Source: a virus. Taken from it: a stretch of 51,157 nt of DNA. Location: the IMG/VR virus record IMGVR_UViG_3300011969_000001; one strand, 5' to 3'. The notes under the pieces were generated by a model. It ran no database searches and was not told where the DNA came from. It worked only from the letters and a program-made list of their open reading frames with translations. A program made the translations under genes and the position numbers. Positions 47,261 to 51,157 of the stretch are shown here, in pieces; within the stretch, counting starts at the first letter, position 1, and every line of letters begins with the position of its first letter.

Positions 47261-48931
47261 TTAGATGCTTGAAATTGAACCTCTACCTGACTTCTTTCGG
47301 TCCTGTTCAATTATTTGAGAGAGGCAATCCAAAATGTCATCATTTTTCACTTTTGGGAAGTACCTCAACTGGTCTCCTAGCTCCCCTACAAGTTGTGTAG
47401 CAGAGAATCGTATATAACCATTAGTTACGAGAGGCTCAATAGAACTGATCCTCATCTCTTTTTTGACTGTGCTCTTATACTCACGGACCGACAAATAAAG
47501 GCCAGCAACTGCTGACCGTTTTTTTACTTCATCACTGAAGAACTGTTGAAATTGTATAGCCTCAACGGATACCCACTTGTAGTTGTAGAGCTTTGCTTTG
47601 TTTAGCAGATCATCAATGATTTGATCGGGTGCTCGTTTCCGGCAATCTACATCCAACACATAGTAAATTCCCGTTTTCGACTTACCAACAGTGAGAATAG
47701 CCGAGGGATCACTACGTTTCGTTTCTTTAAGTGAGGGATCGACACCCCCGATGATGGTCAGCTCATCAATGTTGAACTCGTTGATATCATAGGTGGTGTA
47801 ATGCTTAAAAACTTGTGTCTCGGTATCAATAGGAATATTTTGAAGCTCTGTTGAAAAGGAATAAGGATTGACTGTCCTCTGAACCATAATTTCATACAAG
47901 GGCATTCGTTCGGGCCACAGCACTTCTGCACCTTGGTTCATTGCTTCCAGATTATCCTCGTAATACTGCAATGCTTTTTTACCAGCAATTCTAGTAGCTT
48001 CCATTGCATCTTTACCATCAAGCCTGGAGTGATAGATCTTTGCCCAACGATCCCAGAGGTCCATGTTGTCTGGATAGCTGACTAGTGCTCGATACATCTG
48101 TGCATCCCACTCGGGTCGAGTGTTTGCCAGGGTTGCTAATAATGATTGATAATGAAGAACCGTTCCTACAATTATTTGACAAGAATCTTTAGGAGAACCA
48201 ATGTTACCCAAAGTTTGGTCAAACCAAGTTAATGTTTTTGCAATTTGTTCTGGGGTACTAACGTCACTAGGGCCTTCAAGGTCATCACCTACGATGTTTG
48301 GACGATGGGCCAAGTATCTCGTACCACGAAGACTGCCTCCAGTTCCTGCAGCCATTACCTTGATCAAATGCCCAGGATTTCCAGCTATAATTTCAAGTGA
48401 GTTCCACGTCTTTGTAGTGAGATCACCGAAGTCCTCTCGAATCCTCTTGTTCTCCTCTAAGGAGTTCTTCACCGTATTGAGCTGAACGGATGCGGTCCTT
48501 TCGGTATCACCAAGCAGGATCCAGTAGTATCTACCAACATCTTCGGCATAACAGATAAGCCAGCAGATGCCGATGTTAGAGATGAGGGTAGATTTACTAT
48601 GAGAACGAGGTGCCACAATCAACTTTTTACTAGGCACTCGACTCATGGCAGCCTCTCGAAAAGTAGCAGCTAATTCCCAATGAAATGGAGGGGACGGAGT
48701 GTGCTCTTGCAAGAGGTCACTCGTCTCACTACCTTTAAAGTAGGAAAATGCAAACGACATAATGTCCTGAAATCCATTCTCCATTCGTTGCATCATGTCT
48801 AGATCCAACAGAGCTTGCCGATATTTGACAAGATCTTCTTTACCGAGGCTTCCCGAAGAGTCTAGTTGCTCGTACAGGTTGATCTTCTTTTTTAGAAGAG
48901 CTATAGCTGCAATCCGATCACAAGATTTCAT
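47261..48931 (-). CDS. terL: Terminase large subunit
   Basis: APRSHSKST, LRG..RP.IVGDDLE, GVDPS, DDILD. Confidence 0.92.
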   Translation of the reverse strand: MKSCDRIAAIALLKKKINLYEQLDSSGSLGKEDLVKYRQALLDLDMMQRMENGFQDIMSFAFSYFKGSETSDLLQEHTPSPPFHWELAATFREAAMSRVPSKKLIVAPRSHSKSTLISNIGICWLICYAEDVGRYYWILLGDTERTASVQLNTVKNSLEENKRIREDFGDLTTKTWNSLEIIAGNPGHLIKVMAAGTGGSLRGTRYLAHRPNIVGDDLEGPSDVSTPEQIAKTLTWFDQTLGNIGSPKDSCQIIVGTVLHYQSLLATLANTRPEWDAQMYRALVSYPDNMDLWDRWAKIYHSRLDGKDAMEATRIAGKKALQYYEDNLEAMNQGAEVLWPERMPLYEIMVQRTVNPYSFSTELQNIPIDTETQVFKHYTTYDINEFNIDELTIIGGVDPSLKETKRSDPSAILTVGKSKTGIYYVLDVDCRKRAPDQIIDDLLNKAKLYNYKWVSVEAIQFQQFFSDEVKKRSAVAGLYLSVREYKSTVKKEMRISSIEPLVTNGYIRFSATQLVGELGDQLRYFPKVKNDDILDCLSQIIEQDRKKSGRGSISSI

Positions 48932-49394
48932 ACTCAGCCTCGATCACCGTTGGGGGCAGTGCTTTCTGGGAAGAAGCCAGGACTTTCCGTTTCAACTCTT
49001 CAATTTCTGTAAGTAACACGTCTTGAGTCAAGCTTAAAGTCTGTTCTACAGAGAGATTCAAGTTGCCCGAAACTTCCTTCTTGTCGATCAATTTTCCTCG
49101 GTTCTTGAGCACAAGCTCCATTGCCCGAGTAGACCCTTGCCGGACTGCCTGTTTAAGCTTTCCGTACAATTCTACTGTGAATGCTTCCATAGAAAGCTCA
49201 GAATAATAGAGCAACAGATCAATGAACAGTGGATCGTTTTGCCATCTGAAGATCGTTCTTGTATCAACCCCACACTCAGAAGCAATGTTAGCCATTGTCA
49301 TTCCCGACTCATCTTTAGTGGCAATGAGCTGTGCTCCGAGGATCCTCTCAGGAGTGTAATTGTCTAGATTGATCGTTGGCAGCACAGCCACCAC
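48918..49394 (-). CDS. terS: Terminase small subunit (phBC6A51-like HTH)
   Basis: IA.ECGVDTRTIFRWQNDP.F; directly upstream of terL. Confidence 0.75.
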   Translation of the reverse strand: MVAVLPTINLDNYTPERILGAQLIATKDESGMTMANIASECGVDTRTIFRWQNDPLFIDLLLYYSELSMEAFTVELYGKLKQAVRQGSTRAMELVLKNRGKLIDKKEVSGNLNLSVEQTLSLTQDVLLTEIEELKRKVLASSQKALPPTVIEAEYEIL

Positions 49395-49411
49395 CTCTTT
49401 TCCGAATCTAT

Positions 49412-49618
49412 TTATAAGACCTCTTCAAACGAGCCTTCGTAATCACACACATCCAACGTCTCAGGCATTGTTAGCCCTCCGTAGAACTCACAGATGTGCA
49501 AGACTGGCTCATCAGTGGTCCTTGTGTGATGTCTACATACGGTACACCTGGGCAATATGAAATTGTATTTGGCTTCTTGGCTGAACCCTAACTCATCAAG
49601 AAACAGATTTTTTCTCAT
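49412..49618 (-). CDS. Small Cys/His-rich hypothetical protein
   Basis: CTVCRHH..HIC..C; RBS GAAAGG; track start 49675 overlaps a tRNA. Confidence 0.55.
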   Translation of the reverse strand: MRKNLFLDELGFSQEAKYNFILPRCTVCRHHTRTTDEPVLHICEFYGGLTMPETLDVCDYEGSFEEVL

Positions 49619-49648
49619 AAAGATTTGACCTTTCATTTGTAAATTAAT

Positions 49649-49725
49649 TGGTGGGGGCAGATGGATTTGAACCACCGATTATACGGATCAAAACCGTATG
49701 CCTTTGACCTCTTGGCAATACCCCT
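49649..49725 (-). tRNA. tRNA-Gln(UUG)
   Basis: Cloverleaf; TACGG-TTTTGAT-CCGTA anticodon arm; TTCAAAT T-loop; CCA encoded. Confidence 0.93.
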
Positions 49726-49735
49726 ATGTTTTGTT

Positions 49736-49812
49736 TGGTAGGAATGGGTGGGATCGAACCAACGACCTGTCCCTTATAAGGAGACTGCTCTAACCTAACT
49801 GAGCTACATTCC
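49736..49812 (-). tRNA. tRNA-Ile(UAU)
   Basis: GTCTC-CTTATAA-GGGAC; A73; CCA encoded. Confidence 0.9.
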
Positions 49813-49818
49813 TAAGTT

Positions 49819-49893
49819 TGGCAACAAGGAGTAGGAATCGAACCCACGTCAGAAGTTTTGGAGACTTCAGTTCTACCATTGAACTATCCTGTT
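49819..49893 (-). tRNA. tRNA-Trp(CCA), one extra base in acceptor stem
   Basis: GAAGT-CTCCAAA-ACTTC; G73; acceptor AACAGGA vs TCCTTGTT. Confidence 0.88.
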
Positions 49894-49898
49894 AAGTT

Positions 49899-49973
49899 TG
49901 GAGCCAACTGTACGACTCGAACGTACATCTAATTCCTTACAAGAGAATCACTTTTCCATTAAGCTAAGTTGGC
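49899..49973 (-). tRNA. tRNA-Thr(UGU)
   Basis: GCCAACT/AGTTGGC acceptor; ATTCT-CTTGTAA-GGAAT; CCA encoded. Confidence 0.92.
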
Positions 49974-49982
49974 AAAATAAGG

Positions 49983-50077
49983 TGAAGTAGAACTTGAGTT
50001 GCACAAGTAACCGAATGAGCCGTAGTTATGCATACGTTCACAACAGACGTGCCCTTCAGACCCAACTCGGGACTCCA
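49983..50077 (-). ncRNA. Degenerate tRNA-like element with long extra arm
   Basis: D-arm CCCGAG..AAGGG, T-arm ACTTG-TGCAACT-CAAGT, weak acceptor and anticodon stems, no CCA. Confidence 0.45.
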
Positions 50078-50448
50078 TAATTAATTTAGTAAAGGGCACC
50101 TCCACGATACGTAGGAAGTGCCTTTCGTGTCGTTTACGGCCTGACGAGGCTTAAATAAGCTCCTTCTGCACATTTTCTAGGCAGAGAGGAGCAAAGTTGG
50201 CAATATAAGGTGGTCAGTAGCCTTTCGGCTATACGATGACACTGACCAGATCCCAGTTAGTTCAGTAGGTCTAACAACCTCTATTGGGCATAGTAAAAGC
50301 CGACCCCAGATCGTAGGGCCGGATTCTCCTTCTACACTTGGTAGATGAGCAAAGTCAAGAGTCGTTGCTTGCAGGATGACCGTAGTCAACAACTGATCGG
50401 TAATGTCCGATATTCGTATACTCTTGACACTTGGAAACAATGTTTAGC
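50078..50448 (-). ncRNA. Candidate large structured ncRNA
   Basis: At least 8 helices tile the region, with GAAA and cUACGg tetraloops on the tRNA strand. Confidence 0.7.
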
Positions 50449-50520
50449 TCGGAGAGGTTGGAGTTGCACCAACGACACGACACCTCACGATGCCTTGCTC
50501 TACTACTGAGCTACTCTCTG
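50449..50520 (-). ncRNA. Pseudo-tRNA with GNRA-capped anticodon arm
   Basis: Normal D-arm GCTC/GAGC; GGCATC-GTGA-GGTGTC; T-arm GTTGG-TGCAACT-CCAAC; no CCA. Confidence 0.7.
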
Positions 50521-50527
50521 ATGTTGT

Positions 50528-50599
50528 TGCCGAAAGAAGGACTCGAACCTTCATCTGCTAGTCCTTGACCAGCTGTTTTCCCAGTTAAACCATTTCAGT
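50528..50599 (-). ncRNA. Pseudo-tRNA with non-canonical anticodon loop
   Basis: D-arm GTTT/AAAC; GCTGGTC-AAG-GACTAGC (C33, AAG); canonical T-arm GAAGG-TTCGAGT-CCTTC; ends A-ACA. Confidence 0.7.
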
Positions 50600-50673
50600 A
50601 TGAAACTAAGGCACCGTCTAAGGGCACAGTGCTTACCCTCCAATTAATATTGGGCATTGGCAGTAATGGACAT

Positions 50674-50724
50674 AAAAATAACCACCCTTCACTTCAGTGG
50701 TAGCTAAACACTGAACTTGGGTGG
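50674..50724 (-). terminator. Long hairpin + T-rich tract in late leader
   Basis: CCACCC..TTCAGTG-loop-CACTGAA..GGGTGG followed by TTATTTTT. Confidence 0.55.
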
Positions 50725-50920
50725 CTGAGATAAAGGAACAGGCTGTGGGCCTTTTCTTGCCTTAGCCCTTTTGCTTTACCTCTTCACTAACATAGGCACG
50801 AAGTATGGGTTTCTACAACTAGTGAAATAAAATAAATATATTTTTTATTTTTCTAGATATTGAGTGACAATGCAACTTTGGTGGCTATACATTATAATAA
50901 CGATATCTATTATCTAAGGG

Positions 50921-50958
50921 TATATACGTAATAGTAACGTATATATACGTACAGTAAC
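50921..50958. repeat. Direct repeat TATATACGTA(AT/C)AGTAAC x2
   Basis: Copies start at 50921 and 50942, 21 bp apart, in a non-coding region. Confidence 0.6.
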
Positions 50959-51157
50959 TTTACATGACGTATATTATCGTTAGACAGTAGCCCCCCCCTC
51001 TTCTTCTGAGTGAATGAGCAGTATCCAATCGGGGGTCATCATACTATACTTTAGAATGTACCTAGAGGAGCTGGAAGCCACTTTTAAGCTGTTTGATTAC
51101 TGCTCTAGGGTGATTGTGCCTGTTAGGTATTCAGCTGGCTTGTATGGTGTCCCACTC

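What the first reader, a model, noticed from the sequence alone, without database searches (positions are those of the whole stretch)
49983..50599. Candidate undescribed large structured RNA framed by tRNA mimics at the head of the late operon
Seen (- strand, 50078-50448): 9-bp helix 50420-28/50354-62 enclosing ATCGG-6-CCGAT and TGAC-UACG-GTCA; TCTAC/GTAGA; CCGGCCCT/GGGGTCGG; GTTAG/CTAAC; TGGTCAG/CTGACCA enclosing TAGCC-GAAA-GGCTA; GCTCCT..AGGAGC; GCCT/AGGC; GGCACTTCC/GGAGGTGCC. Tetraloops and G-U pairs favour the tRNA strand. There is no credible ORF. Two pseudo-tRNAs precede it; a tRNA-like element and four real tRNAs follow. Palindromes GATC and TACGTA lie in loops. Known: GOLLD and ROOL are large ornate RNAs of Bacillota phages found near tRNAs and can self-assemble. 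Inference: a GOLLD/ROOL-like or new RNA, possibly excised through the tRNA mimics by RNase P/Z, acting as a scaffold or decoy, or in cis as the late antiterminator.
Basis: partly seen in the sequence, partly recalled or inferred. Interest (0 to 1): 0.85.

Follow-up and report, generated by a model that had tools for sequence, protein, structure and literature searches.

The report
Orphan structured RNA inside tRNA array
A 370-base, gene-free, strongly folding stretch sits between odd tRNA look-alikes in a phage's tRNA cluster, but it matches no known RNA family and has no relatives in anything searched, so it is an unproven one-off candidate and not a GOLLD/ROOL-type RNA.

Summary
The stretch folds better than shuffles (z -4.6 on the tRNA strand, -2.4 on the other). 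It ranks 6th of 395 same-size windows of this phage. Two non-decoding tRNA look-alikes precede it. A weak tRNA-like piece and four canonical tRNAs follow.

I found no homologue. The only other copies are 99.9-100% identical metagenome contigs. Ten relatives of the phage carry other cargo, or only tRNA-Ile, in this slot, while the closest one keeps the same late promoter and leader terminator. That argues against an antiterminator role.

A 23-nt repeat shows that part of the stretch arose by duplication of the neighbouring junction between the tRNA-like piece and tRNA-Thr.

Best reading: a lineage-specific structured spacer RNA in an acquired tRNA array, cut out by tRNA-processing enzymes. A function of its own is unproven, because there is no covariation and no expression data.

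The parts
50905..50995 (-). Late promoter/operator-like region with TATACGT-type repeats, shared with relative L001
   Evidence: blastn match to L001 3092-3150; alignment A2
50673..50724 (-). Leader terminator-like hairpin plus U-run, upstream of the tRNA array
   Evidence: Read from the sequence. The homologous hairpin in L001 has the same loop and changed, still pairing, arms. It was not picked up by the simple terminator scan, which allows loops of 3-8 only.
50526..50600 (-). tRNA look-alike 1: good cloverleaf, anticodon loop with C at position 33, AAG anticodon but a short variable loop, no encoded CCA
   Evidence: ARAGORN; Rfam tRNA 49.7 bits; sequence reading
50449..50520 (-). tRNA look-alike 2: the anticodon arm is a 6-bp stem capped by a GUGA tetraloop, the D-loop lacks GG, the T-loop is UGCAACU, no CCA
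   Evidence: Rfam tRNA 35.3 bits; ARAGORN only with -ps. Its T-arm recurs in many phage tRNAs.
50078..50448 (-). ORF-free structured core (371 nt), the finding proper
   Evidence: z -4.6 on the - strand, -2.4 on the + strand; rank 6 of 395 genome windows; no Rfam hit; no tRNA even at relaxed thresholds
50354..50433 (-). 5' three-way junction: a 9-bp (+5) closing helix around the ATCGG/CCGAT hairpin and a hairpin capped by a C(UACG)G tetraloop
   Evidence: helix list; present in the MFE and centroid folds
50300..50322 (-). 9-bp G+C-rich hairpin followed by CUUUUAC; weakly terminator-like
50209..50248 (-). Minihelix: 8-bp acceptor-like stem, 10-nt linker, 5-bp stem with a GAAA tetraloop whose 3' strand runs straight into the acceptor-like 3' strand, then CC
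   Evidence: It aligns with the T-arm and 3' end of the tRNA-like piece at 49983-50077. It has the same build as minihelix elements in other phage contigs.
50190..50212 (-). Direct repeat copy 1 (21 of 23 identical to 49962-49984)
   Evidence: blastn E 0.002 against the whole window; local alignment z 4.9 against shuffles; alignment A1
50095..50192 (-). Three hairpins: 50192-50159 (12 bp with a bulge), 50150-50139, and 50122-50095 (9 bp, loop holding TACGTA)
49983..50077 (-). Weak tRNA-like piece: Tyr-type D-arm, T-arm with the UGCAACU loop, poor acceptor and anticodon stems, ends ACC without the final A
   Evidence: Sequence reading. Not called by ARAGORN or Rfam. In the MFE fold its D-arm instead pairs with 50260-50250.
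49962..49984 (-). Direct repeat copy 2: 3' end of the tRNA-like piece, U-rich spacer, and the first 12 nt of tRNA-Thr
49649..49973 (-). Four canonical tRNAs, each with an encoded CCA: Thr-UGU 49899-49973, Trp-CCA 49823-49893, Ile-UAU 49736-49813, Gln-UUG 49649-49725
   Evidence: ARAGORN; Rfam 52.7-62.9 bits
49412..49618 (-). Conserved 68-aa Cys-rich small ORF just upstream of terS
   Evidence: Called as a gene in the identical contigs L014 and L015. 77-79-aa ORFs sit in the same position in relatives; their homology was not tested.
48918..49394 (-). Small terminase (PF13022), then large terminase at 47261-48931

Best explanation
The stretch is a lineage-specific, non-coding, hairpin-rich spacer RNA inside a tRNA array that this phage lineage acquired. 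The array sits in a hypervariable cargo slot between the conserved late promoter with its leader terminator and the terminase genes.

It is transcribed on the tRNA strand as part of one precursor, and only when transcription passes the leader terminator. The tRNA-processing machinery then cuts it free. RNase Z, or another endonuclease, would cut 3' of the CCA-less tRNA look-alikes. RNase P would cut 5' of the next tRNA-shaped unit.

At least its 3' third was built by duplication and divergence of the neighbouring junction between the tRNA-like piece and tRNA-Thr. Its stable hairpins, including C(UACG)G and C(GAAA)G tetraloops, would make the released fragment or fragments long-lived.

I take it to be array-derived material whose role, if any, is local: spacing, folding or stabilising the precursor. 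I do not take it to be a conserved trans-acting RNA.

Shown: position, strand bias, absence of an ORF, structure signal, the internal repeat, absence from relatives, and no match to any Rfam family. Inferred: transcription, the processing sites, stability and role.
For: - No credible ORF and no protein-family signal. No remnant of the relatives' cargo genes.
- It is on the same strand as, and contiguous with, six Rfam-scored tRNA-type genes.
- Structure signal: z -4.6 on the tRNA strand against -2.4 on the other; top 1.5% of same-phage windows.
- A 23-nt repeat (21 of 23) joins 50212-50190 to the junction between the tRNA-like piece and tRNA-Thr.
- The slot is variable. L001 and L022 have only tRNA-Ile-UAU there. 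Other relatives carry a lipase, an NlpC/P60 gene or small ORFs.
- Promoter and leader terminator are conserved with L001, which lacks the stretch.
- The four canonical tRNAs encode CCA and the three look-alikes do not. This fits different 3' processing routes; the rule that RNase Z acts on CCA-less precursors in Bacillota is from my own knowledge.
- ORF-poor gaps of 300-800 nt are common in other phage tRNA arrays, with z from +0.8 to -4.0.
Against: - The structure signal, the two extra-stable tetraloops and the well-kept stems of the flanking look-alikes look more like maintained design than decay. That favours an RNA with a function of its own.
- Apart from the 23-nt repeat, no part of the core resembles a tRNA.
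- Known large RNAs do live in such arrays: ROOL and GOLLD were found in 2 of the 7 arrays scanned. The prior for a functional RNA here is therefore not small.
- No expression or processing data could be obtained.
Confidence: 0.45

Rival explanations
1. It is a new class of large, functional phage RNA. It would be excised from the array through the tRNA mimics and act in trans, for example as a scaffold, a decoy for tRNA-directed host nucleases, or a self-assembling particle as in ROOL/GOLLD.
For: z -4.6 with strand bias. C(UACG)G and C(GAAA)G tetraloops lie on the tRNA strand only. The three flanking tRNA look-alikes have intact elbows but no decoding loop. ROOL and GOLLD occupy the same kind of place in other phages (bioRxiv 10.1101/2024.12.08.627333). 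No Rfam match means that, if real, it is undescribed.
Against: There are no homologues, so there is no covariation. The sources searched were GenBank phages, plasmids, 401 Bacillota genomes, IMG/VR exact words, one JGI metagenome pattern, and about 1.2 Mb of fetched phage loci searched by blastn and nhmmer. The stretch is absent from all ten relatives of the phage. Part of it is a recent-looking duplication. Several coding windows of the same phage fold as well.
Confidence: 0.3
2. It is a scar of a mobile insertion or cassette exchange in the tRNA array, for example a decayed homing-endonuclease cassette or a recombination between two arrays. The 23-nt direct repeats would mark the joints.
For: Direct repeats at 50212-50190 and 49984-49962 flank a 205-nt segment and include the 5' start of tRNA-Thr. 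Earlier notes of this scan describe nuclease-linked nested tRNA duplications elsewhere; these are leads only.
Against: There is no nuclease or other protein remnant in any frame. The segment between the repeats is only 205 nt. The strong strand-biased structure is not explained by this reading.
Confidence: 0.12
3. It is a cis-acting late antiterminator or leader element that controls read-through into the terminase operon.
For: It lies between the late promoter and terS.
Against: It lies about 220 nt downstream of the conserved leader terminator, not before it. The closest relative keeps the promoter and terminator but lacks the stretch entirely, and the other relatives lack it too.
Confidence: 0.03
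4. It is a diverged member of GOLLD or ROOL, or of another Rfam family such as tmRNA or a group I intron.
For: Only the context: a phage, next to tRNAs.
Against: No match to any of the 4227 Rfam models, even at E<=10 on a 1.5-kb search. ARAGORN finds no tmRNA. Positive controls for ROOL and GOLLD were found with the same tool.
Confidence: 0.02

Closest known systems
T4 RNAC and RNAD (species 1 and 2 stable RNAs of the T4 tRNA region)
   Same: They are non-tRNA, non-coding RNAs in a phage tRNA region, and their function is still unknown (PMC9697503). That they are made from the tRNA cluster transcript is from my own knowledge.
   Different: They are far shorter than 371 nt (from my own knowledge). 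They are experimentally detected, whereas here there are no expression data. Sequence relationship was not tested.
ROOL (RF03087) and GOLLD (RF02032)
   Same: Large ORF-free structured RNAs of phages and prophages, often beside tRNA islands. GOLLD sometimes carries tRNAs in its linker. Both were seen here in other phage tRNA arrays.
   Different: No covariance-model match at any threshold. This stretch is shorter. There are no homologues, so there is no conserved ornate architecture, and no evidence of multimer formation.
tRNA-punctuated release of non-tRNA RNAs (MHV68 TMERs; E. coli 3'ETS-leuZ; mitochondrial tRNA punctuation)
   Same: tRNA-shaped modules next to a non-tRNA RNA provide RNase P/Z cleavage sites. 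The look-alikes here cannot decode, as with the viral tRNA-like parts of TMERs. All of this is from my own knowledge.
   Different: Those systems have mapped ends and known products. Here processing is inferred only, and the released piece is far larger than a pre-miRNA hairpin or a 3'ETS.
Ordinary phage tRNA arrays with ORF-poor gaps
   Same: Gaps of 300-800 nt without long ORFs between same-strand tRNAs are frequent in the 108 phage loci fetched. Some fold as well (z -3.6 and -4.0).
   Different: Some of those gaps are explained by tRNAs that ARAGORN missed or by small known motifs. This one holds no recognisable tRNA or motif.

Membership tests
GOLLD (RF02032) | Match to the family covariance model at or above the gathering score (150 bits) | tested here: not met
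   No hit at the gathering score or at E<=10. Positive control: L099 2703-3165, 212 bits.
ROOL (RF03087) | Match to the family covariance model at or above the gathering score (99.1 bits) | tested here: not met
   No hit at the gathering score or at E<=10. Positive control: L123 6757-7393, 286 bits.
GOLLD/ROOL | Phage or prophage location near tRNA genes | tested here: met
   It lies inside a tRNA array upstream of the terminase genes.
Any structured RNA family (general standard) | Diverged homologues whose helices are kept by compensatory changes | tested here: not met
   Only 99.9-100% identical copies exist, with no change inside the stretch. No other homologue was found in any collection searched.
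tRNA (RF00005), for the core 50078-50448 | Cloverleaf match | tested here: not met
   No tRNA hit in the core at E<=10 or with ARAGORN down to -ps70 on the tRNA strand.
tRNA (RF00005), for the flanking look-alikes | Cloverleaf match plus a canonical 7-nt anticodon loop with U33 | tested here: inconclusive
   The cloverleaf scores 49.7 and 35.3 bits. However, one element has C33 and the other a GUGA tetraloop in place of the anticodon loop. 49983-50077 is not scored as a tRNA at all.
tmRNA | tRNA-like domain plus a tag reading frame, detected by ARAGORN or the Rfam tmRNA models | tested here: not met
Stable non-tRNA RNAs of phage tRNA operons (T4 RNAC/RNAD type) | Lies in the tRNA cluster on the tRNA strand and is ORF-free | tested here: met
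Stable non-tRNA RNAs of phage tRNA operons (T4 RNAC/RNAD type) | Accumulates as a discrete processed RNA during infection | not testable with these tools
No host or isolate is known.
Cis antiterminator of the late operon | Conserved together with the promoter and terminator it controls, and placed upstream of that terminator | tested here: not met
   It lies downstream of the terminator at 50724-50673. It is absent from L001, which keeps the promoter and terminator.

The most novel reading that the evidence does not exclude
The 371-nt core is a new, so far single-lineage class of large phage RNA. It would be delivered by a 'tRNA-mimic cassette': non-decoding tRNA look-alikes kept only as RNase P/Z handles cut a structured RNA out of the late tRNA precursor, and that RNA then acts in trans, for example as a decoy for tRNA-directed defences or as a self-assembling scaffold.
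Probability: 0.28. Interest if true: 0.7.

Novelty: new member of a known kind. Interest (0 to 1): 0.35.

Why it matters
If the core proved to be a discrete functional RNA, it would add a third kind of large RNA, after GOLLD and ROOL, to phage tRNA islands. It would also show bacterial-virus use of disabled tRNAs as processing handles, a principle so far documented mainly in a herpesvirus and in engineered tRNA-guide arrays.

As it stands, the practical value is narrower. First, the candidate is not GOLLD/ROOL and not the late antiterminator. Second, the slot between the late promoter and terS in this phage group is a cargo site that has taken up very different inserts. Third, structured ORF-free gaps in phage tRNA arrays are common and mostly unexplained, so this one needs expression data or homologues before it can be called a gene.

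Tried and rejected
- Rfam at the gathering score and at E<=10: only tRNA hits.
- ARAGORN down to -ps70: no tRNA on the tRNA strand in the core.
- blastn against GenBank phages with the core and with the whole array: nothing, or only generic tRNA similarity.
- Plasmids: nothing.
- 401 Bacillota genomes drawn around the one related MAG: only 25-31-nt matches at chance level. One was inspected and is a promoter/Shine-Dalgarno region.
- IMG/VR exact words from five places in the core or its junctions: none, or 17-19-nt chance hits.
- The anticodon arm of look-alike 1 in IMG/VR: three chance hits in apparently coding sequence (no tRNA called there).
- JGI metagenome scan with the duplicated junction: two chance hits.
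- Relatives found through terL and terS (L001, L012, L017-L026): no homologue by blastn or nhmmer.
- tblastn of the relatives' cargo ORFs against the stretch: noise only.
- Pfam and PHROGs on the short ORFs: nothing significant (best E 0.099, below cut-off).
- This scan's own index: no look-alike on other DNA.
- No own genome is held for the window.
- I did not build a single-sequence covariance model. With nhmmer finding nothing at E<=10 in the loci held, it would not have added reach.
- The palindromic loops (GATC, TACGTA) as kissing sites: not beyond chance, and not pursued.

Full report
**What is there.**
On the - strand, the end of the window reads in this order:
- a promoter/operator-like repeat region (about 50995-50905);
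- an AT-rich leader;
- a terminator-like hairpin with a U-run (50724-50673);
- a tRNA look-alike at 50526-50600;
- a second look-alike at 50449-50520;
- 475 nt with no tRNA and no credible ORF (49974-50448), whose last 95 nt (49983-50077) look loosely tRNA-like;
- four canonical tRNAs (Thr-UGU, Trp-CCA, Ile-UAU, Gln-UUG);
- a 68-aa small ORF, the small terminase, the large terminase and the portal gene.

**The observation.**
Folding results are:

| Stretch | Strand | MFE (kcal/mol) | z vs dinucleotide shuffles |
|---|---|---|---|
| 475 nt (49974-50448) | - | -149.1 | -3.4 |
| 371-nt core (50078-50448) | - | -118.7 | -4.6 |
| 371-nt core | + | -112.5 | -2.4 |

The tRNA strand is therefore favoured. 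Two hairpins carry extra-stable tetraloops that exist only on this strand, C(UACG)G and C(GAAA)G.

Measured against the phage's own sequence rather than shuffles, the signal is real but less striking.
- With GC correction the core ranks 6th of 395 windows (z -2.2).
- The 475-nt stretch ranks 7th of 338.
- Five long clean stems compare with 1.4 +/- 1.2 in shuffles. Only 5 of 500 shuffles and 11 of 414 genome windows reach five.

The longest ORF (87 aa, TTG start) and the other short ORFs have no significant Pfam or PHROG match (best E 0.099, below cut-off). I count the observation as confirmed.

**Known families.**
A cmscan against all 4227 Rfam models found only the six tRNA-type hits, even with E up to 10 on a 1.5-kb search. 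ARAGORN found no tmRNA. On the tRNA strand it found no tRNA in the core at thresholds as low as 70%.

The negative result is meaningful because the same tool, run on phage tRNA arrays fetched for other reasons, found ROOL (L123, 286 bits) and GOLLD (L099, 212 bits). The stretch is therefore not a GOLLD or ROOL member.

**Homologues.**
None were found. The small terminase identifies four JGI contigs (L013-L016) that are 99.9-100% identical over this region. Their only differences lie outside it, near 51152 and 51044, so they give no covariation.

The next relatives (terS 66-81%, terL 64-79% identical) do not have the stretch:
- L001 has the same promoter region and a homologous leader terminator whose arms differ but still pair. 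It then has only tRNA-Ile-UAU, the small ORF and terS.
- L022 has tRNA-Ile-UAU followed by an NlpC/P60 gene.
- Others carry a GDSL lipase or small ORFs.
- The one related MAG prophage has no tRNA.

The space between the late promoter with its terminator and terS is thus a cargo slot, and the tRNA array with its 475-nt stretch is one lineage's cargo.

Searches outside the phage group also failed:
- GenBank phages and plasmids;
- 401 Bacillota genomes (the best hit was inspected and is a chance match);
- exact words in IMG/VR;
- one JGI metagenome pattern;
- blastn and nhmmer over about 1.2 Mb of fetched phage loci, mostly tRNA-rich;
- the scan's own index.

**Internal evidence of origin.**
A 23-nt segment at 50212-50190 is 21/23 identical to 49984-49962. 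That second segment comprises the 3' end of the tRNA-like piece, the U-rich spacer and the first 12 nt of tRNA-Thr. The match has E 0.002 against the whole window and z 4.9 against shuffles.

Upstream of copy 1 lies a 'minihelix' (50248-50209). It has an acceptor-like stem whose 3' strand continues directly from a 5-bp hairpin, as in a tRNA acceptor/T-arm stack, followed by CC. It aligns with the T-arm and 3' end of the tRNA-like piece.

At least the 3' third of the core therefore arose by duplication and divergence within the array. Outside the repeat, no part of the core resembles any of the seven tRNA-type units.

**The flanking look-alikes.**
Both upstream elements have good cloverleaf scores (49.7 and 35.3 bits), but neither looks able to decode. 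One has C33 and a class-I body with a Leu anticodon. The other has a 6-bp stem capped by GUGA where the anticodon loop should be.

None of the three look-alikes encodes CCA, whereas all four canonical tRNAs do. In Bacillota, CCA-less precursors are the substrates of RNase Z (my own knowledge). The arrangement therefore fits endonucleolytic release of whatever lies between them. This is inference and was not tested.

The identical 17-nt T-arm occurs in 108 IMG/VR contigs, 27 of them inside ARAGORN-called tRNAs of at least nine anticodons.

**Reference class.**
In the 108 fetched phage loci, ORF-poor gaps of 300-800 nt between same-strand tRNAs are common. Fifteen of them gave z-scores from +0.8 to -4.0, and two were at or beyond -3.4. 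Some are explained by tRNAs that ARAGORN misses or by small Rfam motifs, and two arrays hold ROOL or GOLLD elsewhere in the locus. The present stretch is at the structured end of a frequent, mostly unexplained class.

**Mechanism.**
My best reading (0.45) is as follows. It is a structured spacer RNA of an acquired tRNA array. It is transcribed only when late transcription passes the leader terminator. tRNA-processing enzymes cut it out. It is stabilised by its hairpins. Its role is at most local.

The main rival (0.30) is that it is a functional, undescribed large RNA delivered by tRNA-mimic handles. The strand-biased structure, the special tetraloops and the well-kept but disabled look-alikes speak for that rival. 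The complete lack of homologues, and the absence from every relative, speak against it.

Lesser rivals:
- A scar of a mobile insertion marked by the direct repeats (0.12). It lacks any protein remnant.
- The cis-antiterminator idea (0.03). It fails on position and on absence from relatives, the closest of which keeps the same promoter and terminator.

**Comparison with known systems.**
In kind it resembles the T4 RNAC/RNAD RNAs: ORF-free RNAs of a phage tRNA region, function unknown (PMC9697503). In context it resembles ROOL and GOLLD (bioRxiv 10.1101/2024.12.08.627333). The proposed release mechanism resembles tRNA punctuation, as in the MHV68 tRNA-like/miRNA transcripts (my own knowledge). 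Membership in GOLLD, ROOL, tRNA and tmRNA was tested and not met.

**Verdict.**
It remains an orphan candidate, and expression mapping or a deeper homology search would decide it. Interest 0.35.

Noticed in passing
window 50449-50520; loci L033-L140: The T-arm GTTGGTGCAACTCCAAC (T-loop UGCAACU, G where position 55 is normally U) occurs exactly in 108 IMG/VR contigs, 27 of them inside ARAGORN tRNAs of at least nine anticodons. Of 21 distinct such tRNAs, only 5 have GG in the D-loop, against 230 of 269 other tRNAs in the same loci. This looks like a recurrent alternative D-loop/T-loop elbow in phage tRNAs.
   Followed up: partly
L038 ~1997, L062 ~1974, L065 ~1170, L066 ~10964, L067 ~664, L094 ~4230, L111 ~7735 and others: About a dozen distinct 'minihelix' elements, intergenic in those inspected, sit in phage contigs with few or no tRNAs. 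Each has a 7-nt strand, an 8-15-nt linker (often AAGAGUAU), the same T-arm and the complementary 7 nt, followed in some by (A)CC, and sits behind a hairpin in several. They have an acceptor stem and T-arm but no D or anticodon arm. Window 50248-50209 has the same build with a GAAA loop.
   Followed up: partly
window 50673-51000 and L001 3090-3350: The late promoter/operator repeats and the leader terminator hairpin are conserved between the window and L001, with changed but still pairing arms and the same loop. The layout resembles lambda PR'-tR' (short leader transcript, antitermination needed for late genes).
   Followed up: partly
window 49400-51157 versus L001, L017-L026: The space between the ParA-like gene with the late promoter and terS is a hypervariable cargo slot. 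Depending on the relative it holds a tRNA array, a single tRNA-Ile-UAU, a GDSL lipase, an NlpC/P60 plus PG-binding gene, or small ORFs.
   Followed up: partly
L123 6757-7393; L099 2703-3165; L123 4309-4355: ROOL (286 bits), GOLLD (212 bits, with a tRNA inside the match) and a DUF3800-XI motif lie in IMG/VR phage tRNA arrays that were fetched by chance. They are useful positive controls.
   Followed up: no
L035 ~157, L039 ~3750, L054 ~749, L071 ~10657, L132 ~2854: A phage tRNA with an 8-nt anticodon loop (AUUGGUAA; ARAGORN reports the four-base anticodon 'tggt') is conserved identically in five contigs. It may be a frameshift-type tRNA.
   Followed up: no
window end 51099-51157; L013, L015: Three independent assemblies (the window, L013 and L015) break within about 100 nt of each other just upstream of the late promoter, while L014 reads through to a ParA-like gene. 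This suggests a strain-variable junction or a genome end there.
   Followed up: no
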